From IMG/VR virus record IMGVR_UViG_3300034157_000062: DNA of 33,703 nt. The stretch is one strand, 5' to 3'. The translations under genes and the position numbers were made by a program. This stretch comes from an uncultured virus (IMG/VR IMGVR_UViG_3300034157_000062) (Duplodnaviria > Heunggongvirae > Uroviricota > Caudoviricetes). Of the stretch, positions 1,632-31,924 are shown in pieces; within the stretch, counting starts at the first letter, position 1, and every line of letters starts with the position of its first letter. A model generated the notes under the pieces. It searched no databases and had not been told where the DNA came from. It was given only the letters and a program-made list of their open reading frames with translations.

Positions 1632-2171
1632 ATGAATAAAATGATAATAGGTGCTGTGTTGTGTAGTTCTTTACTATTAGGAGCTTGTTCTAGTCATCAA
1701 GCCACTACACCACCTGCTTTTCTGCTTGAAGATAATGTGACGATGAGTGTTGTGACAGATTATCAAGAGAAAGAATTGACCCAACGATTAAGTAATAAGT
1801 GGGAAATCGCTAAAAACTCAACGAGTTTGGTATTAACGGTGAGTGATTTAGATGTTTTTGAAAGTGATAATGAAACCATAAAACCATCCATAATAAAAGA
1901 CTTGGATGTTATTGCTGACATGGTTGTGATTTCTCCACATAGCCAGTTGAAAATTGTATCGCATACTGATAATCAACTTGAATTCTATGCTGGATTAGTT
2001 ATTACGACACGAAAAGCCTTAGAGTTGAAAGATTATATGCAAGCCAAAAACATTAGAGAAAAAAGAATAAGTTTTTATGGTGTAGGAAGTGAATTCCCTA
2101 TCATTAAAGACCCGGATAGTGAAGATAAGATTAAAAATAGAAGAATTGAAATACAAATAAACAACATCTAA
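1632..2171 (+). CDS. OmpA-family domain lipoprotein (degenerate peptidoglycan-binding motif)
   Basis: Lipobox LGAC; SHTDN, G.G...P and NRRIEI motifs. Confidence 0.8.
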   Translation: MNKMIIGAVLCSSLLLGACSSHQATTPPAFLLEDNVTMSVVTDYQEKELTQRLSNKWEIAKNSTSLVLTVSDLDVFESDNETIKPSIIKDLDVIADMVVISPHSQLKIVSHTDNQLEFYAGLVITTRKALELKDYMQAKNIREKRISFYGVGSEFPIIKDPDSEDKIKNRRIEIQINNI

Positions 2172-2210
2172 TAATTTAAACACAAAAAAAAATAATCAGG
2201 AGAATACATT

Positions 2211-2867
2211 ATGCGTAAATTTACAATATCAGTTTTAACAGCAGCACTTTTAATGGGTGGTTTGGCTGGTTGTACGACTAATCCCTATACTGGTGAAAGT
2301 CAAGCTGCTAAAAGTGCTAAATATGGTGGTTTCGGTGCCCTCGGTGGTGCTGCAGTCGGTGCTTTAGTGGGTGGTAAGAAAGGTGCATTGATCGGTGCTG
2401 CTGTGGGTGGTGCTTCTGGTGCGGGTTATGGTTATTACACAGATGTGCAAGAAAAGAAATTGGCTGACCAGCTTAGAGGGACAGGTGTTCAACTTCAACG
2501 TGAAGGCGATACACTTCACTTGATTATGCCGGGTAACATTACATTCAATACAGCACAATCTGATATTGCTTCATCCTTTTACCCAGTATTGAAATCCATT
2601 GCGACTTCATTAAAAGAATATAACACCAGTAACATTGTAGTTATCGGTCACACTGACAACACTGGCACTTTTGAAAAGAACCAAGTATTGTCTGAAAAAC
2701 GTGCGTATTCTGTAGCTAACTACTTTATCTCAGAAGGCATTACACAAGATCGCGTTCAAGCTGTTGGTTATGGTCCACGTCAACCGATTGCTGATAATGG
2801 CACCGACGAAGGTAGACAGACTAATCGTCGTGTTGAGATTCAAATCATCAACAAGCAACAGCAGTAA
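2211..2867 (+). CDS. yiaD: YiaD-like OmpA-family lipoprotein with glycine zipper
   Basis: Lipobox LAGC, TTNPYTGES, Gly-zipper, GHTDNTG...NQVLSEKRA...NRRVEI. Confidence 0.9.
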   Translation: MRKFTISVLTAALLMGGLAGCTTNPYTGESQAAKSAKYGGFGALGGAAVGALVGGKKGALIGAAVGGASGAGYGYYTDVQEKKLADQLRGTGVQLQREGDTLHLIMPGNITFNTAQSDIASSFYPVLKSIATSLKEYNTSNIVVIGHTDNTGTFEKNQVLSEKRAYSVANYFISEGITQDRVQAVGYGPRQPIADNGTDEGRQTNRRVEIQIINKQQQ

Positions 2868-2873
2868 TCTAAT

Positions 2874-3479
2874 ATGAATAAGTTAACCTTATTTATCTGT
2901 TCATCACTGGCACTTGCTGTCAGTGGTTGTTCAGTGACGACCAGCTATTATACAGAACAAAGTGGTTATTCAGAAATTATCAGCAATGATCAAGTGGTGA
3001 CTCCACCCGTAGTAGCACCAGCAGCTATACCGGCTGAAATGAGTATTGAGAAACGAGCTTATCTTGAAACTCAACAAGCTGAATTTACAAAAGATTTAGA
3101 AAAAACTGGGGTTATCATTAATAAACAAGGTAATGACTTATTGTTATACATCCCTGTATTAGATGCTTTCAGCTACAATGGATTTCAATTAACTTCTTAT
3201 GGTTACACTGTTTTAAACAAAATTGGGTTGGACATGTTAGATCAAGAATTCAGTGAATTTGTTGTTTCTGTCTATGATGGTGTAGGTGGTCATCAAGATC
3301 CTAACTTTAATATCAGTGAAGTGCGAGCAAGAGTGACCAATGATTATTTAATATCTCGTAGAGTTAACCAAAACAAGATATCATTTAAAGCAGAAGCTAT
3401 TCCAGTTCCACCTTTAATTGATCCAACGATACCTTATGTAGAAATAAGAATAAAAAATGATGTAAATAATTACAAATAA
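2874..3479 (+). CDS. Divergent OmpA-family domain lipoprotein
   Basis: Lipobox VSGC; TGV...QGNDLLL resembles the YiaD segment TGV...EGDTLHL; N..ISEVRA; VEIRI. Confidence 0.7.
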   Translation: MNKLTLFICSSLALAVSGCSVTTSYYTEQSGYSEIISNDQVVTPPVVAPAAIPAEMSIEKRAYLETQQAEFTKDLEKTGVIINKQGNDLLLYIPVLDAFSYNGFQLTSYGYTVLNKIGLDMLDQEFSEFVVSVYDGVGGHQDPNFNISEVRARVTNDYLISRRVNQNKISFKAEAIPVPPLIDPTIPYVEIRIKNDVNNYK

Positions 3480-5754: not shown

Positions 5755-7011
5755 ATGATCAATACTGTGCAATTATCAGGCAACAAGGCCAAACATCTGA
5801 AAACAAAGCAAGACCATTATCTTGAAATCAGCTCTATTGCTGAAAATAATGGTGGTGAATGTCTGGATCACGAATATGTAGCCAGTCATATCAAGATGAA
5901 TTTCAGATGTATTGATCAGCATGAATGGTCAGCACGTCCTAATGATATTAAGCGTGGAACATGGTGTCCATCTTGTCGTTCCAATAAAACCGAAAACCTT
6001 GTTCGTCAATTTTTCGAAACAGTATTTGATAAACCCTTTAAAGGCAATAGTCCAGAATGGCTTCAAGTTGAAGGCGAACGTAAATGTATTCTTGATGGAT
6101 TGAATACTGATCTTGGGATTGCATTTGAGTATCATGGTGAACAACATTATCATTATATTCCACATTTTCATGACAGAAATCACAAGACTTTTGAATATCA
6201 ACAAGAACGTGATGAAAAAGTAAGAACATTGTGTAGGGAAAACAATGTACATCTTATTGAAATTAAATATTTAGAAGATGGATACTCACGAGACACCTTT
6301 ATTAGTTATCTATCCAGTATTTTTGAAAAAGAATTGAACATTATTGTTTCACCTGAGCAGATTTCTAAGTTTAAAAAACTACCTTTTTCAAGTTCCAAGA
6401 TTAATGAACTCAAGGAATTGGCAAAAAAAATGAATGGTGAATGCTTGTCTGTTAAGTATTTAGGCACTCATTCAAAAGCGAAGTGGAAATGTGAAAAAGG
6501 CCATGAATGGGAAGCGGTACCTAAATCTATCAAAAAAGGTCATTGGTGCCCTTATTGTAATGGACGACTGCGAGAAGGTGATACATTGGAAGAAGTCTCT
6601 GCTATTGCTCTTTCAAAAGGCGGTCAATGCCTATCAACCAGTTTCAAAAACTTAAAAGAGAAATTAAGTTTTGTTTGTTCGGCGGGGCATTCATTTGAAA
6701 AGGCCAGCGATGGCATTATTTACCACGATCAGTGGTGCCCTTATTGTGCTAACAACAAAGTCGTTGATCCTATTAAAGATATGAACGAACATGCTATGAG
6801 TAAAGGTGGTAAATTTATTTCCACTGAATATGTGAATGGACGATCTCCATTAACATTTGAATGTGCTGATGGGCATGTGTGGAACACCACTTATTCATCT
6901 ATTAAACATCGAAAGTCTTGGTGCCCAAGATGCCATGATAAGAAAAGAGGTCAAAACTTGGCTGGATATCTTAATAAGCCTAAATCTCCACAACAGATTA
7001 TAGAAGTTTAA
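5755..7011 (+). CDS. Zinc-ribbon repeat protein with PD-(D/E)XK/Vsr-like endonuclease domain (homing-endonuclease-like)
   Basis: Four G..(L/I)...C...H.(W/F)...WCPxC repeats; E...LDG...IAFEYHGEQHY...RD.K nuclease motif between repeats 1 and 2. Confidence 0.75.
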   Translation: MINTVQLSGNKAKHLKTKQDHYLEISSIAENNGGECLDHEYVASHIKMNFRCIDQHEWSARPNDIKRGTWCPSCRSNKTENLVRQFFETVFDKPFKGNSPEWLQVEGERKCILDGLNTDLGIAFEYHGEQHYHYIPHFHDRNHKTFEYQQERDEKVRTLCRENNVHLIEIKYLEDGYSRDTFISYLSSIFEKELNIIVSPEQISKFKKLPFSSSKINELKELAKKMNGECLSVKYLGTHSKAKWKCEKGHEWEAVPKSIKKGHWCPYCNGRLREGDTLEEVSAIALSKGGQCLSTSFKNLKEKLSFVCSAGHSFEKASDGIIYHDQWCPYCANNKVVDPIKDMNEHAMSKGGKFISTEYVNGRSPLTFECADGHVWNTTYSSIKHRKSWCPRCHDKKRGQNLAGYLNKPKSPQQIIEV

Positions 7012-7129: not shown

Positions 7130-7222
7130 TGAGCTAATCTCATTGAGAGGGATTAGCACACGCTAAACCCTCTGGCAAACGAATGTGGAGCCTTTGAGGG
7201 TAATAACTCAAAGGCTTTTTTT
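7112..7222 (+). promoter_or_regulatory. Putative transcription attenuator (alternative hairpins)
   Basis: 7112-18 pairs with 7170-76; 7133-41 with 7149-57; 7146-57 with 7162-73; 7167-76 with 7190-7201 (antiterminator). Confidence 0.7.
7189..7222 (+). terminator. Intrinsic terminator of the leader
   Basis: AGCCTTTGAG-8nt-CTCAAAGGCT perfect 10 bp stem ending in a T7 run. Confidence 0.9.
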
Positions 7223-7313
7223 ATGCCTGTTTGAGAAGGGTAGAGTATTACCTTAATGTTTATATATGCTTGATTTAAAAGGAAAAATAGTTAAAAATAA
7301 TTTAAAATAGTTG

Positions 7314-7342
7314 TTGACAAAGATGAAAAGAGTTGGTAAGAT
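7314..7342 (+). promoter_or_regulatory. Sigma70 promoter P2 directly upstream of tRNA array
   Basis: TTGACA (7314-19), 17 nt spacer, TGn-extended TAAGAT (7337-42), AT-rich upstream tract. Confidence 0.7.
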
Positions 7343-7399
7343 GTTAAACATGAAGAGTTGAGAAGAAAAAAGAAAAACACTTCATAAAAGAATAAATAT

Positions 7400-7477
7400 G
7401 GGGGCACATGTTCCAAGGGATGGCGAGTTTGCCTTGCACGCAGACTGTGAAGAGTTCGATTCTCTTTGTCTCCACCA
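7400..7477 (+). tRNA. tRNA-Ala(TGC), atypical D arm (C8)
   Basis: GGGGGCA/TGTCTCC acceptor with G3:U70, CT-TGC-AC loop, TTCGATT T loop, ACCA end. Confidence 0.8.
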
Positions 7478-7500
7478 GATTTGTTAACGTAGAGGTGTCT

Positions 7501-7761
7501 ATGAGTAGTCCAGAACCTAAGATATTAAAAGCGGGTGATACTATTTGGCTTGCAACTAAAATAGGTGGACTTCCGGGGTTGCCAGAAGGTCGTTACAGTG
7601 TTGTTGAAGGTGTTACACCAGAACCTGAACAACATGAAAATGATTTCGATGGAACAGCAGGAATGATTGACACATCGACAATGATAGTAGTAGAATATGC
7701 GGGAAGCCATTACTTAGTAGACTTAGTTGATAGAGAATGGCGAATTGTAGAACAAATTTAA
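7501..7761 (+). CDS. Small hypothetical protein inside tRNA cluster (86 aa)
   Basis: GAGGTG RBS before ATG 7501; fills the gap between two tRNAs. Confidence 0.7.
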   Translation: MSSPEPKILKAGDTIWLATKIGGLPGLPEGRYSVVEGVTPEPEQHENDFDGTAGMIDTSTMIVVEYAGSHYLVDLVDREWRIVEQI

Positions 7762-7766
7762 AATAT

Positions 7767-7841
7767 GGGCTGTTAGTTTAACTGGGAAAATACCTGCCTT
7801 GCACGCAGATGTTCAGAGTTCGATTCTCTGACGGTCCACCA
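7767..7841 (+). tRNA. tRNA-Ala(TGC)
   Basis: GGGCTGT/ACGGTCC, G3:U70, anticodon TGC, CCA. Confidence 0.9.
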
Positions 7842-7865
7842 TATTAGTTGTAGAGAAAGAAATAT

Positions 7866-7942
7866 GTCTGCGTAGCTCAGTTGGATAGAGCATCCGCCTT
7901 CTAAGCGGATGGTCGCTGGTTCGAATCCAGCCGCAGACACCA
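7866..7942 (+). tRNA. tRNA-Arg(TCT)
   Basis: GTCTGCG/CGCAGAC, TCCGC-CT-TCT-AA-GCGGA, CCA. Confidence 0.95.
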
Positions 7943-7947
7943 AATTT

Positions 7948-8019
7948 GGGGCGTTTAGTTTAACGGGAAAAACCATTTAGCAATAAATGAACGTGGTTCG
8001 AGGCCACGAGGCTCCACCA
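7948..8019 (+). ncRNA. tRNA-Ala-like RNA lacking a canonical anticodon loop
   Basis: G3:U70, A73, CCA, intact T arm and D arm; anticodon arm is CATTTA-GCAA-TAAATG (tetraloop). Confidence 0.7.
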
Positions 8020-8030
8020 GATTTAAATAT

Positions 8031-8105
8031 GGGCTGATAGTTTAATTGGGAAAACACCTGCCTTGCACGCAGGAATTCAGAGTTCGATTCTCTGTCGGTC
8101 CACCA
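8031..8105 (+). tRNA. tRNA-Ala(TGC)
   Basis: GGGCTGA/TCGGTCC, anticodon TGC, CCA. Confidence 0.92.
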
Positions 8106-8120
8106 GATTATAGTTTTAAT

Positions 8121-8196
8121 GTTCTCATAGCTCAATTGGAAGAGCAATGACCTTCTAAGTCATAGGTTGTAGGTTCGAGTCCTACTGGGAATACCA
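8121..8196 (+). tRNA. tRNA-Arg(TCT)
   Basis: GTTCTCA/TGGGAAT, ATGAC-CT-TCT-AA-GTCAT, CCA. Confidence 0.9.
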
Positions 8197-8201
8197 ATCA
8201 C

Positions 8202-8370
8202 AAGTTAGTTTGTTGTAAGCTAACTTAAAAAGAGCCGTGTTGCCTGATTAGCCACTAGTATACTGGTCAAGTATGATTGAAACAGCTTAATCACTGTAGT
8301 TTGACCTCTGATAAGTATATCCGGTAGGTATTTACCGACACTTCGAAGCGTGGAGATGCTTGCATCCGTG
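8202..8370 (+). ncRNA. Putative structured RNA in tRNA operon spacer
   Basis: Several nested stems identified by eye; no plausible + strand ORF. Confidence 0.4.
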
Positions 8371-8394
8371 AAGCGTTAGAAGAAATACTACTAT

Positions 8395-8469
8395 GGGCTG
8401 TTAGTTTAGCTGGGAAAATACCTGCCTTGCACGCAGGAGTGCTGGGTTCGAGTCCCTGACGGTCCACCA
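8395..8469 (+). tRNA. tRNA-Ala(TGC)
   Basis: GGGCTGT/ACGGTCC, anticodon TGC, CCA. Confidence 0.9.
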
Positions 8470-8481
8470 GTTTTGTTGTTT

Positions 8482-8558
8482 GTCCGTGTAGCTCAGTTGG
8501 ATAGAGCGTCTGCCTCCTAAGCGGAAGGTCGTAGGTTCGATCCCTATCGCGGACACCA
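8482..8558 (+). tRNA. tRNA-Arg(CCT)
   Basis: GTCCGTG/CGCGGAC, TCTGC-CT-CCT-AA-GCGGA, CCA. Confidence 0.93.
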
Positions 8559-8629
8559 GAATAAGGGGGTTTTACTGTAAAGGTAAGACCGGATTGAAGC
8601 CGTGGTTTCCGGGGGCGTTCATTCAATAT

Positions 8630-8706
8630 GGGATTTTAGCTCAGTTGGTTAGAGCATCCGACTCATAATCGGCAGGTCGTAAGTTCAAGTCTTACAAGTC
8701 CCACCA
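8630..8706 (+). tRNA. tRNA-CAT, probably Ile2 (lysidine, reads AUA)
   Basis: GGGATTT/AAGTCCC; CGACTCATAATCG anticodon arm and GTTCAAGTC T loop resemble enterobacterial tRNA-Ile2; G1:C72 so not initiator. Confidence 0.85.
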
Positions 8707-8723
8707 AATTAGATGTAACCTAT

Positions 8724-8798
8724 GGTTCTGTAGCATAACGGTAAATGCACCCCGCTCATAACGGGATGATTAAGGTTCGATTCCTTGCAGAACCACCA
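8724..8798 (+). tRNA. tRNA-CAT (Ile2 or elongator Met)
   Basis: GGTTCTG/CAGAACC, CCCG-CT-CAT-AA-CGGG, CCA. Confidence 0.85.
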
Positions 8799-8805
8799 GA
8801 TTGAT

Positions 8806-8928
8806 AGAAAGGTAGCTTAACGGGCGAGCAGCCGGGATGACCCGGTAACTTTAAATCTCATGTCAGATAAATTTTCGTAATTTATAGGCCATGTGATAGT
8901 GATAATGGTTCGAATCCATTCCTTTCTA
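8806..8928 (+). ncRNA. tRNA-like RNA with long variable-region insertion and non-canonical anticodon arm
   Basis: AGAAAGG/CCTTTCT acceptor, TAGCTTAA..GG..AGC D arm, AATGG-TTCGAAT-CCATT T arm, no encoded CCA. Confidence 0.65.
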
Positions 8929-8939
8929 CTTTTATTTTT

Positions 8940-9014
8940 GGGCTTGTAGTTCAGAGGGAGAACGCTTGTATGGCATACAAGAGGTCGTGGGTTCGAATCC
9001 CATCAGGTCCACCA
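8940..9014 (+). tRNA. tRNA-Ala(GGC)
   Basis: GGGCTTG/CAGGTCC with G3:U70, CTTGT-AT-GGC-AT-ACAAG with the characteristic A32-U38, CCA. Confidence 0.95.
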
Positions 9015-9022
9015 AATCAAAT

Positions 9023-9049
9023 AAAGAGAACTTCATAGTTCTCTTTTTT
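9023..9049 (+). terminator. Terminator of tRNA operon
   Basis: AAAGAGAACT-TCAT-AGTTCTCTTT plus T run. Confidence 0.85.
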
Positions 9050-9109
9050 ATTGCCTATAATTTACTATTGTGCTATAATCAATCATTATTTTAATGTGAG
9101 GAATTGATT

Positions 9110-9940
9110 GTGATTAGAAGTTCATTGAAAGACCTTAAAAAAGCGATTACCCAAGTGTACAAAAGTCCTTTTAAAGTCTCCACCTATAAAGATGAAGTTG
9201 AGGGAGAAATGCAAACTTTTCTCAATATTGAAAGCCTTAACAAAAAAACATTGGCTGATTTTCAATACATTAAAGAAGATGGAGCCATTATTTCAGGCTA
9301 CAATGATTCACATGACTATCGAAAAGAACGTGAAGAATACTTTCCTGAATATTATGACGAAACTCATTTAAAGATCTATCAAAAAGCATTTAATCTCTTT
9401 TATTCTAATACAGTAGTAAAAGAATTTGTTAAACCAAATACATTAGCAGCTATTAATAAAAACATGTTTGATATTAGTGATGATTATAGACGTGGTGTTC
9501 CCTTGATTGATATTTTTTCTTTCTTGGGTAATAGTGGCCGTAGTGATACTGCTATTGGACTGCAGTATTATCTCAATGAAAAAAATGAAATAAAGCCTAG
9601 AATGAAAATACAGTTTTCATTTACCAGTTGTAGTCATCTTATTATTTATTATGATTATGACTCTAATTGTTTTCGTTTTGGTGATGTCCAGCTCATTGAT
9701 GGTGACAAAACATCAACATTAGATGACAATACAATCTCCGAATTATTTAATTTAAACGCTGATGAACTGTTAGATGATGACAACAAGTTAAACTCATTAT
9801 TTACTAATTGGACACTATTCATGGGAAGTTATCTCAATAAGCAGGCTTTTATTCATTATAATCTTGATGAATTAATAGATGCATCTAATAAAAATAAGAC
9901 GCTGGAACATTTAAAATTAATTAAAATGGCATTTATTTAA
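9110..9940 (+). CDS. Hypothetical protein, paralog of 9995..10939, C-terminal MxxI motif
   Basis: GAGG RBS then GTG at 9110; shared KEDGAI, QYY.NE....KPRMKI.F; ends LIKMAFI. Confidence 0.8.
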   Translation: MIRSSLKDLKKAITQVYKSPFKVSTYKDEVEGEMQTFLNIESLNKKTLADFQYIKEDGAIISGYNDSHDYRKEREEYFPEYYDETHLKIYQKAFNLFYSNTVVKEFVKPNTLAAINKNMFDISDDYRRGVPLIDIFSFLGNSGRSDTAIGLQYYLNEKNEIKPRMKIQFSFTSCSHLIIYYDYDSNCFRFGDVQLIDGDKTSTLDDNTISELFNLNADELLDDDNKLNSLFTNWTLFMGSYLNKQAFIHYNLDELIDASNKNKTLEHLKLIKMAFI

Positions 9941-13208: not shown

Positions 13209-13658
13209 TTATTTTGCTAGTAATACAATTTCTTCATCAATTAGATAATTAATTGATTTATTTAGTATTGTATTGATACCCATAATGGTTTTTAAAGAGA
13301 TTCCCGTATGTGAGTCTACAATGACATTTCTAGAATGTTCATAATACTCTGCTGGTTTGTCGTCAATCATTACATAATTGATTATATGGTTTTCTACTAC
13401 ATAATCCTTACATTCATAATGTCGTGTATATTCTTTGTAGGCATCTGATAAATCTTTTGTAACGCCTACGACCCGATTATTAAGGATCTGATTAAAGAAT
13501 TCAATATCTTTAATCAGTCTCCATGTCGATGAGATAACAATGTCTATATTGTTATGGCTGCAGTAAGCATTAAGACAAGCAACAGCCTCTGGATACCAGC
13601 TATTCTTGGTGGGATGTTTTAATACGCCATCTATATCTAGAAATATTATATTATTCAT
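13209..13658 (-). CDS. HAD phosphatase of the Swiss-Army-Knife RNA-repair-like type
   Basis: FLDIDGVL, IVISSTWR, YVMIDD motifs. Confidence 0.85.
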   Translation of the reverse strand: MNNIIFLDIDGVLKHPTKNSWYPEAVACLNAYCSHNNIDIVISSTWRLIKDIEFFNQILNNRVVGVTKDLSDAYKEYTRHYECKDYVVENHIINYVMIDDKPAEYYEHSRNVIVDSHTGISLKTIMGINTILNKSINYLIDEEIVLLAK

Positions 13659-13715: not shown

Positions 13716-15146
13716 ATGGATTATTACAAATTAATTGGCGAAGAAATTGCTTATTACGATATAAATGGCAAGAAACAGACAATCGGAACTATAAAACACA
13801 TCAATGATGATAAAGCTAAAGTATCATTTACCATTGATGGTCAAAATTCATTTCGTGAACTGGCTAAAAAAGATTATTTAGACAGAAGCGATATCTTAAC
13901 ACTGTTGAAAACAAACAAAAGAGAAGTGGACGCTTATTATGGCAGACCTATGACTGATGTAGGGAGTGTGTTTGATTTCGTCAAGAACACAGCTAAGAAA
14001 GGTTTTACTGAATTATCCATTGGTGATGTTTCTAATGAAAAAATCTACCTCAGAAAAGGGCAGTTTGTGACTAACAATGATTCTATATCAAGTGTGTTCG
14101 ATAATGCAGTTAAATCCGACTTAGAAGGTGATAAAGAAAGCCTTGTTGTTAAATCTATTCAGTTAAGTAAAGAAGGTAACAAAGTAATGGGTAGTCACAT
14201 TATGATTAAAGCGGCAGCAGACCCAGCCAATGATTACAAAACATTGTTAGAATTCGCAGCTCTTGAAACATTGAAAGACAGCGGATTGAATGTGCCTAAA
14301 TACAGATTAGAAACCATTGATAATCGTCCTTACTTGATTATGGAAAACTTCAACAAATCGAATTCATTTGAACTCAATGTCATCAAAGATGAACGAGGCA
14401 CCGCTATTCAGGTCGCAGATAACAATGCTTTTTACAGCACCAAATTATCGTATGACATGAATGATATGGCTAAGTGTTTTTCAAACAATAAAGCCAAGTT
14501 AAATGATGAGAACTATGAACATTCATACCTTGTAGCGATGAAACTTGCTAATGCCGTTCATGATTCTTCTAATCTTGATGGTGATACTAAGGAATATGTA
14601 GAAGCTAGAAAGAATAAAGTTCAAAAAGATTTAATGAAAGCAATGTCTTTCAACATTCTTATAGGTAACACTGATATGCATGGTGGTAATCTTAAAGTCT
14701 TATTGAACCAGAACTCAAATCCTTTAACTAATAAGCCAGACTTTGAATTTGCTCCATTCTATGACATTACCCCGCATTCTATTAATCAGTCTGGTAATAA
14801 TGAATTATTGAGACATGGTAAAAGTCTCAATACATTAGAATCAAAAGACTTATTTAATACCAGCTATCGTGGTGTTGCTAGAACAGAGACATTCCAGAAG
14901 GAATTTGAAGAAGCTAAGAAAATGGTTAAATCCTATAAAGAGAAAGTAACCAAACTATTTGAGAAGACACCTGAGTTGTTGGCTATGTTTAAAAATCATT
15001 TCACGAAAACGAATGAGTTTAAACGTGTTCAAAAATTTGATGGTATGGAATATGATTTAAGTGTTCTTGATACGGATAATAGAAAACGTCCTGAGCAAGT
15101 TAAAATACACCAGCAAAACTTTATGCCCAAAGCAAAACAAGGTTAA
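13716..15146 (+). CDS. HipA-like Ser/Thr kinase
   Basis: FNILIGNTDMHGGN and FAPFYDITP match HipA catalytic and Mg-binding motifs; E...L......GL.VP. Confidence 0.8.
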   Translation: MDYYKLIGEEIAYYDINGKKQTIGTIKHINDDKAKVSFTIDGQNSFRELAKKDYLDRSDILTLLKTNKREVDAYYGRPMTDVGSVFDFVKNTAKKGFTELSIGDVSNEKIYLRKGQFVTNNDSISSVFDNAVKSDLEGDKESLVVKSIQLSKEGNKVMGSHIMIKAAADPANDYKTLLEFAALETLKDSGLNVPKYRLETIDNRPYLIMENFNKSNSFELNVIKDERGTAIQVADNNAFYSTKLSYDMNDMAKCFSNNKAKLNDENYEHSYLVAMKLANAVHDSSNLDGDTKEYVEARKNKVQKDLMKAMSFNILIGNTDMHGGNLKVLLNQNSNPLTNKPDFEFAPFYDITPHSINQSGNNELLRHGKSLNTLESKDLFNTSYRGVARTETFQKEFEEAKKMVKSYKEKVTKLFEKTPELLAMFKNHFTKTNEFKRVQKFDGMEYDLSVLDTDNRKRPEQVKIHQQNFMPKAKQG

Positions 15147-28756: not shown

Positions 28757-29206
28757 TTAATAGAATTTTTCGATAGTTCTCAATTCAAAATCTATGGTGT
28801 CTATTAAATAACCAGAACATTTTAAATATTCAATGATACCGTTTTCTTTATTAAATTCATTCATGAGATAGCGAGAATTTCCATTCATTTCACGACGACC
28901 ATTCCATGAAAAGAATATATCAAAACCTTGATGTACATCATTGTAATACTGAACAAATAAACCATGTTTACGATTTTTCTTTCGTAGTCTTTTCTGAGGA
29001 AGCGTATTACTTATTGAAAATTTTAATGATTTTATATTATAAAAATTAGTCTCCATTAACGTTAATAAAATAGACTCCATTGATTTTAATAAACGTTCTT
29101 TTTCATACTCGCCTACATCACCTTCTGTTTCAAAATGAAAATCTAGAACACAATTGGTTTCTTTCATGGTTATTTTTATATTTTTCAACGTATTATCCTT
29201 TTGCAA
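28757..29206 (-). CDS. Hypothetical protein
   Basis: 149 aa ORF downstream of the phosphatase; start uncertain. Confidence 0.65.
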   Translation of the reverse strand: MQKDNTLKNIKITMKETNCVLDFHFETEGDVGEYEKERLLKSMESILLTLMETNFYNIKSLKFSISNTLPQKRLRKKNRKHGLFVQYYNDVHQGFDIFFSWNGRREMNGNSRYLMNEFNKENGIIEYLKCSGYLIDTIDFELRTIEKFY

Positions 29207-29885
29207 AAACGCGGCCAGCCACTTTCAAGGTTTTAAGGTTTACTGCAGTCAGTGAACCACCTGAGTAATAGCCAGTATCTAGAAAGATTACGTTAGCGTG
29301 ACGTTCAGGATTTTTAAAGATGTGATGACCTACAAAGACGACATCAATGTTAGTGATTGGGTCAATTCTTTCACCTTTTTGAACAGCCTTCGAAGCCGTT
29401 CTACTCCAAATGATGTTACCTATCTCTATTTTGTTTTTATTTTTAATCGCCTTCAAGGTGTCTTTCCAATCAGACAATGGGTAAGCATGAACAAGCCCTA
29501 CTTTGCCCACTTGAATAGCGTATGGAAGCTCATTGAGTCTATTAATAATCGCTTGACGATGCTCTAAACTTTCATCAAAGAACCATTGATTGCCTTCTTT
29601 GTTAATGTCTTGATAACATTCGGTATAAGGTTTCAAACCATGCTTGATGAGGATATCTTCATGATTTCCACGAATAGTGAATAACCATTTGTTTTTTAAT
29701 AGTTCAAGTACTTTATTACTGTCTAATCCACGATCAGTGAGATCCCCTAAACAAAATAGGCGATCTTTTTCTTTATTAAAACCGATTTGGTCCAACAATG
29801 CATAAAGAGCCGTGTAGTTACCGTGTAAGTCACCTACACAGTAGTCATTTCCTTCTTTATTCTCTTTATAAATTTCATATAACAT
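29193..29885 (-). CDS. Ser/Thr protein phosphatase / metallophosphoesterase (lambda NinI/PphA-like)
   Basis: GDLHG, GDLTDRG, RGNHE, VHA, GH, DTG motifs. Confidence 0.9.
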   Translation of the reverse strand: MLYEIYKENKEGNDYCVGDLHGNYTALYALLDQIGFNKEKDRLFCLGDLTDRGLDSNKVLELLKNKWLFTIRGNHEDILIKHGLKPYTECYQDINKEGNQWFFDESLEHRQAIINRLNELPYAIQVGKVGLVHAYPLSDWKDTLKAIKNKNKIEIGNIIWSRTASKAVQKGERIDPITNIDVVFVGHHIFKNPERHANVIFLDTGYYSGGSLTAVNLKTLKVAGRVFAKG

Positions 29886-30011: not shown

Positions 30012-31280
30012 ATGGAAAAGACAAACAATAACAATGAAGAAGTTATCTTAACTGGCTATCTCAGCGATATAAAGAAAGCATTCAACATTGAATACGGTAG
30101 AGAAGCAAACAGAAAAGATTCTGAAGTTATTGCTTCATCACTTTACAGTATCATCAACTCTTATTACTTTGAGGGACTATATCAATATTCAAAGATCGGT
30201 ACCGATCATGAAGATAATTACTACCTTAAAGTAATTCCAAGCAAGAATTTAGAAAAAGCCACAGTCAATGTTGATGGTGAAAATGTGCTTATTGCAGACT
30301 ACACTAAAAAAATTCTGGGTGAATCTAGACGCCGTATGCCATTGAATAGTGAATTACCTATTTCTGGTTTTACATCGGTTGTTGATTTAGGTATAGATCA
30401 GCCAGAAGAAAATGGGATGGATGAGATATTTATCACCAGTAATTTAGAAATACTTCCAGTGATTAATAGATTGAAAGAAATTAATCCAGACTTATACAAT
30501 GTTATCTTTGAAGAAAACGATCTCAAACAAAGCCTTATTGTTAAGTCAAAACACGACCTTACTTTTGATATTGTTTCATTTGACGACTTAGATAATTACT
30601 TAGCTAACACAGTAAAGATACAATCAACTAATGATCTATATAGCTCACTTAACAAGAACTATGACCTTCGTTATCTTGTTAAAGAATCAAAACCTAAAAA
30701 CACAAATGGATTTGCAGTGGTAGCACATAACAATTTAGAAATAGGTGGCATTGCTATTGTTGATGCCAGTATAGTCGTTGATAAAGCTATCTCACACTTA
30801 GGACAGTCAGCGAAAGATATAGCTGCCAAATTTTTGAAAGTATCCAGTGTGATGGTTAGCAATAATTACCGTGGACAAGGATTAGGAGTTTCTTTGTTTG
30901 AACAAGTGATTAATGAGGCAGCCAAGAAGGACTTTATTATTATTCGTTCAGAAGCCAGTGATTTGGGTCGCAACTTCTTGAAGAAAAATATCGATCTGTT
31001 GGCTGAAAGTAAACAAGTTCCTGTTATTAATGCAGAATGGATGAATACTATTACTCCATTGCTTTCTAAAATGTTTAATGGTCAATGGACGACTGGTAAA
31101 ACAATGTTAAATGAGCTGATTACTGATGTCAAAGCTTTTGATAAGCAAATCCATGAAAAGAAGATGAATGCTCGTTCTTCTAATGATTTCTTTGATATTG
31201 AAGATGAAGAAAAAGACTTCATGAATAACTTAGCTAAACGATTTGACAAAAAACCTATTAGTAAAGTTAAAATGAGATAA
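30012..31280 (+). CDS. Protein with C-terminal GNAT acetyltransferase domain
   Basis: V.VSNNYRGQGLG..L motif A; S..GRNF; basic tail. Confidence 0.75.
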   Translation: MEKTNNNNEEVILTGYLSDIKKAFNIEYGREANRKDSEVIASSLYSIINSYYFEGLYQYSKIGTDHEDNYYLKVIPSKNLEKATVNVDGENVLIADYTKKILGESRRRMPLNSELPISGFTSVVDLGIDQPEENGMDEIFITSNLEILPVINRLKEINPDLYNVIFEENDLKQSLIVKSKHDLTFDIVSFDDLDNYLANTVKIQSTNDLYSSLNKNYDLRYLVKESKPKNTNGFAVVAHNNLEIGGIAIVDASIVVDKAISHLGQSAKDIAAKFLKVSSVMVSNNYRGQGLGVSLFEQVINEAAKKDFIIIRSEASDLGRNFLKKNIDLLAESKQVPVINAEWMNTITPLLSKMFNGQWTTGKTMLNELITDVKAFDKQIHEKKMNARSSNDFFDIEDEEKDFMNNLAKRFDKKPISKVKMR

Positions 31281-31315: not shown

Positions 31316-31924
31316 TTATTCCAAGGTATTGAATAAGGTTTCATCATCACCGCACTTGGCTTTTAACCTATCAATCCAAGCTTGATTTTTGACTTTACAC
31401 CTGACAATCTTGTTTCTTACAACGGCCTTACCAATGACACCTTCAAATGTCACACCATCGAGAGTGCCCGTTTTAATCTTCTCTAACATTGTTCTGTTGA
31501 ACTTAGAGATAAGAAGAAATTCAGACATTTCTACTGACCCATCAAACGTCTTGATGTATTCCTTGGGTGGTAAGTAACCTATTCTACCAATGTGAGCGTC
31601 AATAAGAGAAACTTTAAATGTATCATTCTCATCATGGAAACCAGCAAAAGAATTAGGGCCATGAAACTCAAAAAACAACGTTCCATTTTCCCATTTATTC
31701 TTTTTAAAGATATCATGAACAGCTTTTTCATAACCCATAATCAACTCTTTCGACTGATTAAGAATACCTGAATCATCTGACATTAATTTCTTTCTTGTTC
31801 CAAATTTATCGAAGCCTTTTTTAAGCGAATATTCAACTCGAACGTTTGAACCATCTAATTTGTCAAAAATGTAGTAGTCAACGTCTTGAATAATGCCTTT
31901 ACCTATTGATGGATACTGTTGCAT
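31316..31924 (-). CDS. RNA ligase-like covalent nucleotidyltransferase (Rnl2-like catalytic domain)
   Basis: Motif I KLDGSN, EFHG, EGVI (motif IV), KVK (motif V). Confidence 0.75.
   Translation of the reverse strand: MQQYPSIGKGIIQDVDYYIFDKLDGSNVRVEYSLKKGFDKFGTRKKLMSDDSGILNQSKELIMGYEKAVHDIFKKNKWENGTLFFEFHGPNSFAGFHDENDTFKVSLIDAHIGRIGYLPPKEYIKTFDGSVEMSEFLLISKFNRTMLEKIKTGTLDGVTFEGVIGKAVVRNKIVRCKVKNQAWIDRLKAKCGDDETLFNTLE

What the first reader, a model, noticed from the sequence alone, without database searches (positions are those of the whole stretch)
7948..8019. Anticodon-less tRNA-Ala mimic capped by a GNRA tetraloop
Seen: 72 nt RNA with G1:C72, G2:C71, G3:U70, A73 and CCA, a D arm like the neighbouring Ala tRNAs and a perfect T stem. 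The anticodon arm is a perfect 6 bp stem CATTTA/TAAATG closed by GCAA, and the variable region is 2 nt. Established: AlaRS recognises G3:U70 and ignores the anticodon, so this RNA could be alanylated but could not decode normally. Inference: the clean stem argues against random decay. It may be a decoy, a non-ribosomal Ala donor or a ribosome-rescue substrate that anticodon nucleases cannot cut.
Basis: partly seen in the sequence, partly recalled or inferred. Interest (0 to 1): 0.7.

Follow-up and report, generated by a model that had tools for sequence, protein, structure and literature searches.

The report
Sealed-anticodon alanine tRNA look-alike in phage
A large phage keeps, inside its tRNA gene row, a tRNA-shaped RNA gene that carries the marks for loading alanine but has its codon-reading loop closed, and its relatives have preserved this shape, so it is probably a working tRNA mimic with a role outside normal protein synthesis.

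Summary
Window 7948-8019 (+) is a 72-nt cloverleaf with G1-C72, G2-C71, G3.U70, G4-C69, A73, an encoded CCA and a perfect T arm. A 6-bp stem capped by GCAA replaces the anticodon loop. ARAGORN and Rfam do not call it.

It lies in a tRNA operon (Ala, Arg, Met) bounded by a conserved promoter-like site and a terminator.

The only fetchable relative, a 181-kb viral record, has the same operon and two paralogous copies. Both have 4-nt closed loops (UUUC, GAAA) on unrelated stem sequences.

The three copies are only 65-74% alike, whereas the ten real tRNAs are 91-100% alike. Every T-stem and closed-arm pair is still kept, and the top of the acceptor stem never varies.

This argues against decay, a recent deletion or an assembly error.

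All three carry the acceptor-stem part of the bacterial alanine identity set, including G4-C69, which the neighbouring decoding Ala tRNAs lack. Their T stems predict about 1 kcal/mol weaker EF-Tu binding.

Best reading: a selected, probably alanine-chargeable, non-decoding tRNA mimic that acts off the ribosome. A decoy role is the most likely, but this is unproven. No RNA data were available.

The parts
7948..8019 (+). Gene for the 72-nt tRNA-Ala look-alike with a closed anticodon arm and an encoded CCA
   Evidence: Sequence. Own covariance model R1 scores it 93.5 bits, against 45.7 for the best real tRNA. Not called by ARAGORN or Rfam.
7948..7954 (+). Acceptor 5' strand GGGGCGU, pairing with 8009-8015 (AGGCUCC). 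G3.U70 and G4-C69 are present. G6.G67 is a mismatch.
   Evidence: pair table: 6 of 7 pairs. Positions 1-4 and 69-73 are invariant in all 3 family members.
7958..7973 (+). D arm GUUU-AACGGGAA-AAAC, with a GGG run that can supply G18, G19 and possibly G20
   Evidence: The D stem is identical in the 3 mimics and matches the neighbouring Ala tRNAs.
7974..7989 (+). Closed arm: 6-bp stem CAUUUA/UAAAUG capped by a GCAA (GNRA) tetraloop at 7980-7983. It replaces the anticodon stem-loop.
   Evidence: The 16 nt cannot form a 5-bp stem with a 7-nt loop.
7992..8008 (+). T arm CGUGG-UUCGAGG-CCACG
   Evidence: 5 of 5 pairs are kept in all three members despite 4-8 substitutions.
8016..8019 (+). Discriminator A73 and encoded CCA
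7314..7342 (+). Promoter-like site TTGACA-17-TAAGAT (with TG) upstream of the tRNA row
   Evidence: The same site is found in the relative at L003:3673-3701. This is a consensus match only.
9023..9046 (+). Intrinsic-terminator-like hairpin with a T run, directly after the last tRNA
   Evidence: Conserved in the relative at L003:5909-5932.
7402..9014 (+). The tRNA operon that holds the mimic: Ala-UGC x4 (one with an odd D arm), Arg-UCU x2, Arg-CCU, Met x2, Ala-GGC, plus a second tRNA-like RNA
8806..8928 (+). Second non-decoding tRNA-like RNA in the same operon. It has an acceptor stem, a D arm, a closed arm GCCGGG-AUGA-CCCGGU, an extra arm of about 50 nt with a UUCG-type loop, and a T arm. It has no CCA and no Ala identity.
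   Evidence: Rfam tRNA model 37 bits. 96% identical in the relative.

Best explanation
This is a functional gene for a non-decoding derivative of tRNA-Ala.

Proposed mechanism:
1. It is transcribed with the tRNA operon.
2. It is cut out like a tRNA: RNase P at the 5' G, and 3' trimming to the encoded CCA.
3. It folds into an L shape, with its D-loop GG and T-loop UUC intact.
4. The host alanyl-tRNA synthetase recognises and probably charges it. This enzyme reads the acceptor stem and not the anticodon.
5. The closed GCAA-capped arm stops it pairing with a codon. A weaker predicted EF-Tu affinity keeps it mostly off the ribosome.
6. It then acts in trans as a stand-in for tRNA-Ala.

My preferred role is a decoy or competitor.

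What is shown: the structure, its position in the operon, and conservation by compensating changes. What is inferred: processing, charging and weak EF-Tu binding. What is a guess: the decoy role.

Odds: selected non-decoding RNA about 0.8; charged by AlaRS about 0.55; decoy role about 0.3.
For: (1) Three family members exist: the candidate, L003:4165-4239 and L003:4349-4422. All have 4-nt closed loops (GCAA, UUUC, GAAA) on stems of unrelated sequence.

(2) They are 65-74% alike. The ten real tRNAs of the operon are 91-100% alike between the two genomes, and three spacers are 77-100% alike.

(3) Pairing is kept. The T stem has 5 of 5 pairs in all three members after 4-8 substitutions. In my neutral simulation the fraction of runs doing as well was 0.016, 0.0064 and 0.0077. 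The closed arm keeps 5 of 5 pairs after 8 substitutions (0.0072). RNAalifold finds 22 pairs, 9 of them with changes on both sides.

(4) G1-C72, G2-C71, G3.U70, G4-C69, A73 and CCA are invariant in 3 of 3. The published bacterial Ala identity set is A73, G2-C71, G3.U70, G4-C69 and G20 (table seen in PMC9976931). The neighbouring decoding Ala tRNAs have C4-G69 instead.

(5) The gene grammar matches real tRNAs: U at -1 in 11 of 12 genes including this one, encoded ACCA, short spacers, and one conserved promoter-like site and terminator around the row.

(6) I calculated EF-Tu affinity from Table 2 of PMC3239215. The values are -9.1, -9.3 and -9.4 kcal/mol for the three mimics and -10.1 for neighbours 7767 and 8031. 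The class mean for Ala-UGC is -10.0 with sd 0.52. All three mimics lack G51-C63.

(7) The context fits a conflict over tRNAs. The window holds a HAD_SAK_2 RNA-repair domain protein, a weak RNA-ligase match and a metallophosphoesterase. A published bacterial Schlafen tRNase cuts tRNA-Ala(UGC) and tRNA-Met(CAU) in the anticodon arm (passages seen in PMC13056530). These are two of the three specificities in this operon.

(8) An independent example exists. A 266-kb viral record carries a canonical tRNA-Ala body with a 5-bp stem and a 4-nt AUAU loop (L038).
Against: Comparison rests on two genomes and three copies.

The copies are paralogues, not positional orthologues. The candidate lies upstream of the Ala gene whose orthologue precedes the relative's first copy.

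The candidate and one homologue each have one acceptor-stem mismatch. The third member lacks the D-loop GG and has G54, so its elbow may be degenerate.

The same relative carries decaying tRNA-Leu copies in another array. One has a closed 4-nt loop but a poor acceptor stem and no CCA. Closed loops can therefore also occur in apparent pseudogenes.

Most known anticodon nucleases read the anticodon loop, which this RNA lacks. A decoy would need a target that reads the tRNA body. If the target were only an anticodon-arm nuclease, conservation of G3.U70 would be unexplained.

The EF-Tu difference is only 1.2-1.7 sd from the class mean. A more distant relative, a 437-kb phage with 27 tRNAs, has no such element.
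Confidence: 0.4

Rival explanations
1. Neutral relic. It is a dead duplicate of tRNA-Ala in a fast-duplicating tRNA array. It is still transcribed and trimmed but has no function of its own.
For: The arrays here duplicate and decay. The relative has extra Ala genes and an array of 11 tRNA-Leu genes with degenerate copies. One of these has a closed 4-nt loop, a poor acceptor stem and no CCA. The family diverges faster than the spacers. One acceptor mismatch occurs in two of three members.
Against: After 26-35% divergence, all T-stem and closed-arm pairs are intact in 3 of 3 members, and the acceptor top, A73 and CCA are invariant. The simulated chance of this per stem is 0.006-0.02. A dead gene in a compact operon is normally deleted.
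Confidence: 0.15
2. Cis-acting processing or folding element. It is a tRNA-shaped spacer kept only so that RNase P and 3' nucleases cut the polycistronic precursor correctly.
For: It sits in the middle of a polycistronic tRNA row with U at -1 and an ACCA end. Earlier notes of this scan proposed this role for similar elements in other phages (unchecked). A 12-bp acceptor/T-arm helix is what the processing enzymes read (established knowledge, recalled).
Against: It is flanked on both sides by real tRNAs that bring their own processing signals (5 and 11 nt away). There is nothing extra to release. A processing role does not explain why G3.U70, G4-C69 and A73 are invariant while the rest of the stems vary.
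Confidence: 0.15
3. Dedicated alanine carrier. The charged mimic supplies Ala to a non-ribosomal aminoacyl-tRNA transferase of the cell-wall, lipid or protein-tagging type. This would resemble the weak-EF-Tu tRNA-Gly of staphylococci.
For: The acceptor-stem part of the Ala identity set is complete. Predicted EF-Tu binding is about 1 kcal/mol weaker in all three. PMC3239215 (passages seen) describes the staphylococcal cell-wall tRNA as a weak EF-Tu binder that avoids translation. A conserved 422-aa protein with a GNAT domain lies at 30012-31280.
Against: None of the 39 window ORFs scanned matches a Fem, MprF, L/F-transferase or cyclodipeptide-synthase family. The predicted structure of the GNAT protein matches only generic acetyltransferases, with best Foldseek E-value 0.012. 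Only 34 kb of a genome of at least 180 kb was seen.
Confidence: 0.12
4. Ribosome-rescue or trans-translation mimic. It would act like a tag-less tmRNA tRNA-like domain, or compete with tmRNA for SmpB or AlaRS.
For: The 5' GGGGC and 3' GCUCCACCA ends are as in tmRNA and bacterial tRNA-Ala (recalled). The topology matches too: acceptor stem, T arm and a capped helix. Short viral elements with a 5' motif that I recall as tmRNA-like, plus a capped helix, exist elsewhere (L024, L057, L065).
Against: There is no tmRNA call by ARAGORN and no Rfam tmRNA match at E<=10. The candidate has a tRNA-type D stem-loop, not what I recall of the tmRNA D-loop. An anticodon-stem-like helix occupies the place that SmpB takes (recalled structural knowledge). 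No SmpB-like ORF is in the window.
Confidence: 0.05

Closest known systems
Canonical phage and bacterial tRNA-Ala (Rfam RF00005), including the window's own Ala-UGC genes
   Same: Cloverleaf with acceptor stem, D arm, T arm, G3.U70, A73 and CCA. The D stem is identical to the neighbours'. Same operon and same flanking grammar.
   Different: It has no 7-nt anticodon loop, no U33 and no anticodon. It has G4-C69 where the neighbours have C4-G69, a 3-nt linker after the acceptor stem, and a shorter variable region. Neither Rfam at E<=10 nor ARAGORN detects it.
Phage T4 species 1 RNA (rnaC), a small stable RNA at the end of the T4 tRNA cluster
   Same: It is a non-decoding stable RNA encoded in a phage tRNA cluster. 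In the T4 record it carries a perfect T arm (CCGGG-UUCGAAU-CCCGG) and paired termini. R1 scores its 3' part at 21.5 bits, like real T4 tRNAs. Its function is still listed only as 'small, stable RNA'.
   Different: rnaC is 139 nt with long internal hairpins. I saw no cloverleaf, no Ala identity and no encoded CCA. It resembles the window's second element (8806-8928) more than the candidate.
tRNA-like domain of tmRNA
   Same: It is charged with Ala via G3.U70, has no anticodon, and has an acceptor stem plus T arm with a helix in place of the anticodon stem (abstracts seen for PMC3929946 and PMC3985003).
   Different: tmRNA has an mRNA-like domain and pseudoknots, lacks a D stem and needs SmpB. 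None of these was found here.
Aminoacylatable tRNA-like structures of plant viruses, e.g. BMV TLS-Tyr
   Same: [quoted passage not shown]
   Different: Those are 3' ends of RNA genomes with pseudoknotted acceptor arms. This is a free-standing gene with a true cloverleaf in a DNA phage.
Non-proteinogenic tRNA-Gly of Staphylococcus
   Same: An extra tRNA copy that is charged normally but binds EF-Tu poorly and serves a role outside translation (passage seen in PMC3239215).
   Different: It keeps a normal anticodon loop, and its transferase partners are known.
Bacterial Y RNA (YrlA) and mascRNA tRNA mimics
   Same: Non-decoding RNAs that imitate the tRNA shape. Y RNA partners occur in jumbo phages with Ro/TROVE proteins (passage seen in PMC7824862).
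   Different: No Rfam YrlA or mascRNA match covers the candidate. The YrlA topology is different (termini in the Ro-binding stem; recalled). No TROVE ORF was found in the window.

Membership tests
Canonical decoding tRNA (RF00005) | 7-nt anticodon loop with U33 and a 3-nt anticodon on a 5-bp stem | tested here: not met
   The arm has 16 nt: a 6-bp stem and a 4-nt GCAA loop. Only even-sized loops (4, 6, 8 nt) can form symmetrically.
Canonical decoding tRNA (RF00005) | Score at or above the Rfam gathering threshold, or a call by a tRNA finder | tested here: not met
   None of 24 Rfam matches at E<=10 overlaps 7948-8019. None of 10 ARAGORN genes lies here.
Canonical decoding tRNA (RF00005) | Acceptor stem, D arm and T arm with a UUCRA T loop and a D-loop GG (elbow) | tested here: met
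   Acceptor 6 of 7 pairs, D stem 4 of 4, T stem 5 of 5, T loop UUCGAGG, D loop AACGGGAA.
Substrate of bacterial alanyl-tRNA synthetase | G3.U70 wobble pair | tested here: met
   Present in 3 of 3 family members. Identity set taken from the table in PMC9976931.
Substrate of bacterial alanyl-tRNA synthetase | A73, G2-C71 and G4-C69 | tested here: met
   All present in 3 of 3 members. The neighbouring decoding Ala tRNAs have C4-G69.
Substrate of bacterial alanyl-tRNA synthetase | G20 in the D loop | tested here: inconclusive
   The candidate has a GGG run that can place a G at position 20 if position 17 is absent. The two homologues lack it.
Substrate of bacterial alanyl-tRNA synthetase | Actual aminoacylation with Ala | not testable with these tools
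   Needs an in vitro charging assay or an acid-urea northern blot.
RNase P / tRNA 3'-end processing substrate | 12-bp acceptor plus T-arm helix, favourable -1 base and a 3' RCCA | tested here: met
   7 + 5 bp with one G.G mismatch, U at -1, and an ACCA end. Actual cleavage was not testable.
tmRNA | mRNA-like tag reading frame and pseudoknots between the halves of the tRNA-like domain | tested here: not met
   The element is 72 nt. ARAGORN finds no tmRNA and Rfam gives no tmRNA match at E<=10.
YrlA / Y RNA | Match to RF02553 and an associated Ro/TROVE protein | tested here: not met
   Only sub-threshold YrlA matches (18-21 bits; gathering score 69), and none covers the candidate. No TROVE hit among 39 ORFs.
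Family of closed-arm tRNA-Ala look-alikes defined here (model R1) | Invariant GGGG...CUCCACCA ends with G3.U70, D stem GUUU/AAAC, and a hairpin with a 4-nt loop in place of the anticodon arm | tested here: met
   3 members score 93.5, 83.7 and 73.2 bits. The best real tRNA scores 45.7. There are no further members in the 181-kb relative and none in a 437-kb relative. The three sequences built the model, so their scores are high by construction.

The most novel reading that the evidence does not exclude
Large phages encode a class of tRNA-Ala mimics that the synthetase can charge but the ribosome cannot use, with the anticodon loop sealed. They would serve as counter-defence RNAs: decoys or sinks for host factors that attack tRNA-Ala or aminoacyl-tRNA ends, or private alanine carriers. 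The design would have arisen more than once. Three groups point that way: this family, the unrelated element L038 in a 266-kb phage, and short capped elements whose 5' motif I recall as tmRNA-like (L024, L057, L065).
Probability: 0.3. Interest if true: 0.8.

Novelty: new variant of a known kind. Interest (0 to 1): 0.62.

Why it matters
Phage tRNA genes are now seen as weapons in a conflict with host enzymes that cut tRNAs. A tRNA copy that keeps every feature needed for processing and alanine loading, but is deliberately unable to read codons, would be a new kind of player in that conflict, or a private amino-acid carrier.

It is directly testable. Express the 72-nt RNA, ask whether it is charged, and ask whether it protects translation or phage growth against tRNA-targeting defence systems.

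It also matters for annotation. Standard tRNA finders and Rfam miss these genes, so they are invisible in phage genomes.

Tried and rejected
- Whole-genome search: no genome is held for the window.
- More relatives: the genome-contig scans found none.
- Cultured-phage collection: only generic tRNA-level hits for the cluster. No match for the flanking protein, the GNAT protein or the 72-nt element.
- IMG/VR: only one syntenic record, found four ways.
The contigs behind the 8 homologues of the flanking protein and the 22 homologues of the GNAT protein could therefore not be fetched.
- Recent deletion or assembly error: rejected. An independent assembly carries two homologues with closed loops, and the candidate's arm shares no sequence with the neighbours' anticodon arms.
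- Reading the arm as a 6-nt loop with a 2-nt 'anticodon', as ARAGORN does for one homologue: rejected, because there is no U33 and the 6-bp stem is perfect.
- tmRNA, YrlA and mascRNA membership: no supporting matches.
- Fem-like transferase link: the 422-aa GNAT protein was folded (pLDDT 72.7). It matched only generic GNAT folds, with best E-value 0.012. This is inconclusive.
- Four other phages with a near-identical tRNA-Ala (L004-L007): they have ordinary large tRNA clusters and no member of this family.
- Complex prediction was not used, because no protein partner is proposed.

Full report
**What is there**

Window 7948-8019 (+) reads as a 72-nt cloverleaf. Its parts are:
- acceptor stem GGGGCGU/AGGCUCC
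- a 3-nt linker, UUA
- D arm GUUU-AACGGGAA-AAAC
- a closed arm, C-AUUUA-GCAA-UAAAU-G
- two unpaired A
- T arm CGUGG-UUCGAGG-CCACG
- discriminator A and an encoded CCA

It omits a G6.G67 mismatch and the extra linker base.

ARAGORN reports 10 tRNA genes in the window, none here. Rfam at E<=10 gives 24 matches in 7200-9300, and none overlaps the element. The 16-nt arm cannot form a 5-bp stem with a 7-nt loop, so there is no anticodon.

**Where it sits**

The window is AT-rich (about 32% GC) and phage-like.
- PHROG and Pfam hits include an HNH endonuclease, a pyrophosphatase, a Nudix hydrolase, DEDDh exonuclease domains, an ART-PolyVal domain, a HAD_SAK_2 RNA-repair domain, a metallophosphoesterase and a weak RNA-ligase match.
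- One ORF has its best matches in jumbo phages of 200-385 kb.
- No genome is held for the window.

The element lies in a row of genes at 7402-9014 (+): Ala-UGC x4, Arg-UCU x2, Arg-CCU, Met x2 and Ala-GGC. A promoter-like site precedes the row (7314-7342) and a terminator-like hairpin follows it (9023-9046). Both are conserved in the relative.

The element is 5 nt downstream of an Arg gene and 11 nt upstream of an Ala gene. It has U at -1, as do 11 of the 12 genes in the row, and it ends in ACCA like its neighbours.

**Relatives**

The protein encoded just downstream (9104-9940) has 8 homologues at 58-99% identity. Only one related DNA could be fetched: a 181-kb IMG/VR record classed as a provirus, 58% complete.

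It has the same operon with the same bounding signals, and it holds two elements of the same design:
- L003:4165-4239 has a 6-bp stem with a UUUC loop.
- L003:4349-4422 has a 5-bp stem with a GAAA loop.

A covariance model built from the three scores them at 93.5, 83.7 and 73.2 bits, which is high by construction. The best real tRNA in 69 kb of window and loci reaches 45.7 bits.

The whole 181-kb record has no further copy. A more distant 437-kb phage record with 27 tRNAs has none. Scans of genome contigs and the cultured-phage collection gave nothing.

**Selection**

Between the two genomes the ten real tRNAs are 91-100% identical. The second tRNA-like RNA is 96% identical, and three spacers are 77-100% identical. 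The candidate is only 74% and 65% identical to the two homologues.

The three are paralogues rather than positional orthologues. The candidate lies upstream of the Ala gene whose orthologue precedes the relative's first copy.

Despite this divergence, pairing is kept:

| Stem | Comparison | Substitutions | Pairs kept | Fraction of neutral simulations doing as well |
|---|---|---|---|---|
| T stem | candidate vs first homologue | 4 | 5 of 5 | 0.016 |
| T stem | candidate vs second homologue | 8 | 5 of 5 | 0.0064 |
| T stem | first vs second homologue | 6 | 5 of 5 | 0.0077 |
| Closed arm | candidate vs second homologue | 8 | 5 of 5 | 0.0072 |

RNAalifold on the model-fitted alignment returns the same cloverleaf, with 22 pairs, 9 of them changed on both sides.

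G1-C72, G2-C71, G3.U70, G4-C69, A73, CCA and the D stem never vary. This rules out a recent deletion or an assembly error, and it makes simple decay unlikely.

There is a caution. The relative's separate tRNA-Leu array holds degenerate copies. One has a closed 4-nt loop but a poor acceptor stem and no CCA. A closed loop alone does not prove function.

**What the conserved parts say**

The published bacterial alanine identity set is A73, G2-C71, G3.U70, G4-C69 and G20 (table seen in PMC9976931). Its four acceptor-stem elements are present in all three members. G20 is possible in the candidate only.

The operon's decoding Ala tRNAs have C4-G69. The mimics are therefore not recent copies of them, and on this point they match the synthetase's preferences better.

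That alanine minihelices are charged without an anticodon is established knowledge (Francklyn and Schimmel 1989, seen only in a reference list).

I calculated EF-Tu affinity from the T-stem model of PMC3239215 (Table 2 seen). The three mimics give -9.1, -9.3 and -9.4 kcal/mol. Neighbours 7767 and 8031 give -10.1. The class mean for Ala-UGC is -10.0 with sd 0.52. All three mimics have replaced G51-C63.

The same paper describes the staphylococcal cell-wall tRNA-Gly as a weak EF-Tu binder that avoids translation. The difference here is modest.

**Mechanism**

I conclude that this is a selected, non-decoding derivative of tRNA-Ala. It is processed like a tRNA and is very probably recognised, and likely charged, by AlaRS. 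The closed arm and weaker EF-Tu binding keep it off the ribosome.

What it then does is not shown. I favour a decoy or competitor for a host factor directed at tRNA-Ala, for three reasons:
- The operon is restricted to a few specificities in several diverged copies.
- The genome invests in RNA repair.
- A published defence tRNase of the Schlafen family cuts tRNA-Ala(UGC) and tRNA-Met(CAU) in the anticodon arm (passages seen in PMC13056530).

Two points weigh against this. Most anticodon nucleases read the loop that this RNA lacks. The strict conservation of the alanine identity set points to a role for charging itself, which would fit a dedicated Ala donor.

No aminoacyl-tRNA transferase family was found among the 39 window ORFs scanned. 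The conserved 422-aa GNAT protein folded only to a generic acetyltransferase domain.

A pure processing role is unlikely, because the element is flanked by self-sufficient tRNAs.

**Comparison with what is known**

The closest precedent inside a phage tRNA cluster is T4 species 1 RNA (rnaC). In the T4 record it carries a perfect T arm and paired ends but no cloverleaf or Ala identity.

Other precedents are:
- the tRNA-like domain of tmRNA
- chargeable plant-virus tRNA-like structures, one with a 4-nt pseudo-anticodon loop
- the staphylococcal non-proteinogenic tRNA-Gly
- Y RNA and mascRNA mimics

The candidate fails the defining tests for a decoding tRNA, tmRNA and YrlA.

Four full-text searches found no paper describing sealed-anticodon tRNA mimics in phages. 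Subscription journals are not covered.

**Generality**

A strict end-motif scan of IMG/VR for short Ala-type elements returned 55 loci with 46 distinct sequences. My rule-based sorting gave:
- 23 with a normal Ala anticodon arm
- 12 with a closed hairpin
- 11 unclear

G3.U70 was fixed by the pattern, so it carries no information here.

The clearest case is L038, in a 266-kb viral record. It has a canonical tRNA-Ala body with a 5-bp stem and an AUAU loop. It scores 47.8 bits on R1.

Three others (L024, L065, L057) have a 5' motif that I recall as tmRNA-like, and long capped helices.

Earlier notes of this scan list similar elements in other phages (unchecked).

The design therefore recurs. Standard annotation misses most of these elements, or, as with L038, calls them tRNAs of undetermined type.

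Noticed in passing
window 8806-8928 (+); L003:5694-5817: A second non-decoding tRNA-like RNA in the same operon. It has an acceptor stem, a D arm, a closed arm GCCGGG-AUGA-CCCGGU, an extra arm of about 50 nt ending in a UUCG-type loop, and a T arm. It has no CCA and no Ala identity. It is 96% identical in the relative. Rfam's tRNA model gives 37 bits. In length and position it recalls T4 rnaC and rnaD.
   Followed up: partly
window 8197-8394 (+); L003:4514-4710: A conserved non-coding stretch of about 195 nt between tRNA-Arg and tRNA-Ala, 84% identical in the relative. The predicted fold has 46 pairs, 2 of them with compensating changes. There is no Rfam match, so it may be a structured RNA.
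   Followed up: partly
window 8559-8629 (+); L003:5440-5519: A conserved 70-nt spacer between tRNA-Arg(CCU) and tRNA-Met that folds into two hairpins. In the relative an ORF of about 180 codons is inserted just upstream of it.
   Followed up: no
window 7402-7477 (+) and 7499-7744: The first tRNA-Ala(UGC) has an odd D arm and a C4.C69 mismatch (Rfam 30.8 bits), yet it is 98.7% identical in the relative. The window then carries a 246-bp insertion absent from the relative. It holds most of a small ORF (7408-7761, no family hit) and a promoter-like site (7667-7696).
   Followed up: partly
L010 (G001:C1:77300-79800, minus strand): The related 181-kb record has a second array of 11 tRNA-Leu genes with five different anticodons. 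It also holds degenerate copies: one with an 8-nt loop, one Leu-derived copy without the long arm, and one with a closed 4-nt GAUA loop, a poor acceptor stem and no CCA.
   Followed up: partly
L038, L024, L065, L057 (IMG/VR loci): Other viral contigs carry short Ala-type elements without an anticodon. L038 has a canonical tRNA-Ala body with a 4-nt AUAU loop, in a 266-kb record. L024, L065 and L057 have a 5' motif that I recall as tmRNA-like, plus an 8-10-bp helix capped by GAGG or UCCG. None has a tRNA gene within 300 nt.
   Followed up: partly
window 13209-13658 (-), 13716-15146 (+), 29193-29885 (-), 31316-31924 (-): Several RNA-end and tRNA-related genes: a HAD_SAK_2 RNA-repair domain protein next to a HipA-like kinase, a calcineurin-like phosphoesterase, and a weak RNA-ligase match. 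Together they suggest investment in repairing or countering RNA damage.
   Followed up: no
window 30012-31280 (+): A 422-aa protein with a C-terminal GNAT domain. It is very conserved: 16 of the 22 homologues found are at 81-99% identity over the full length, on contigs of up to 1.5 Mb. The N-terminal half matches no family. The predicted structure matches only generic acetyltransferases.
   Followed up: partly
window 5755-7011 (+): An HNH/treble-clef endonuclease gene lies directly upstream of the tRNA operon and is followed by its own terminator (7187-7218). T4 likewise has a homing endonuclease (segB) inside its tRNA cluster.
   Followed up: no
window 1632-3479 (+): Three consecutive OmpA-family ORFs, one of them with a glycine-zipper domain. 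This is unusual cargo for a phage and may hint at a Gram-negative host.
   Followed up: no
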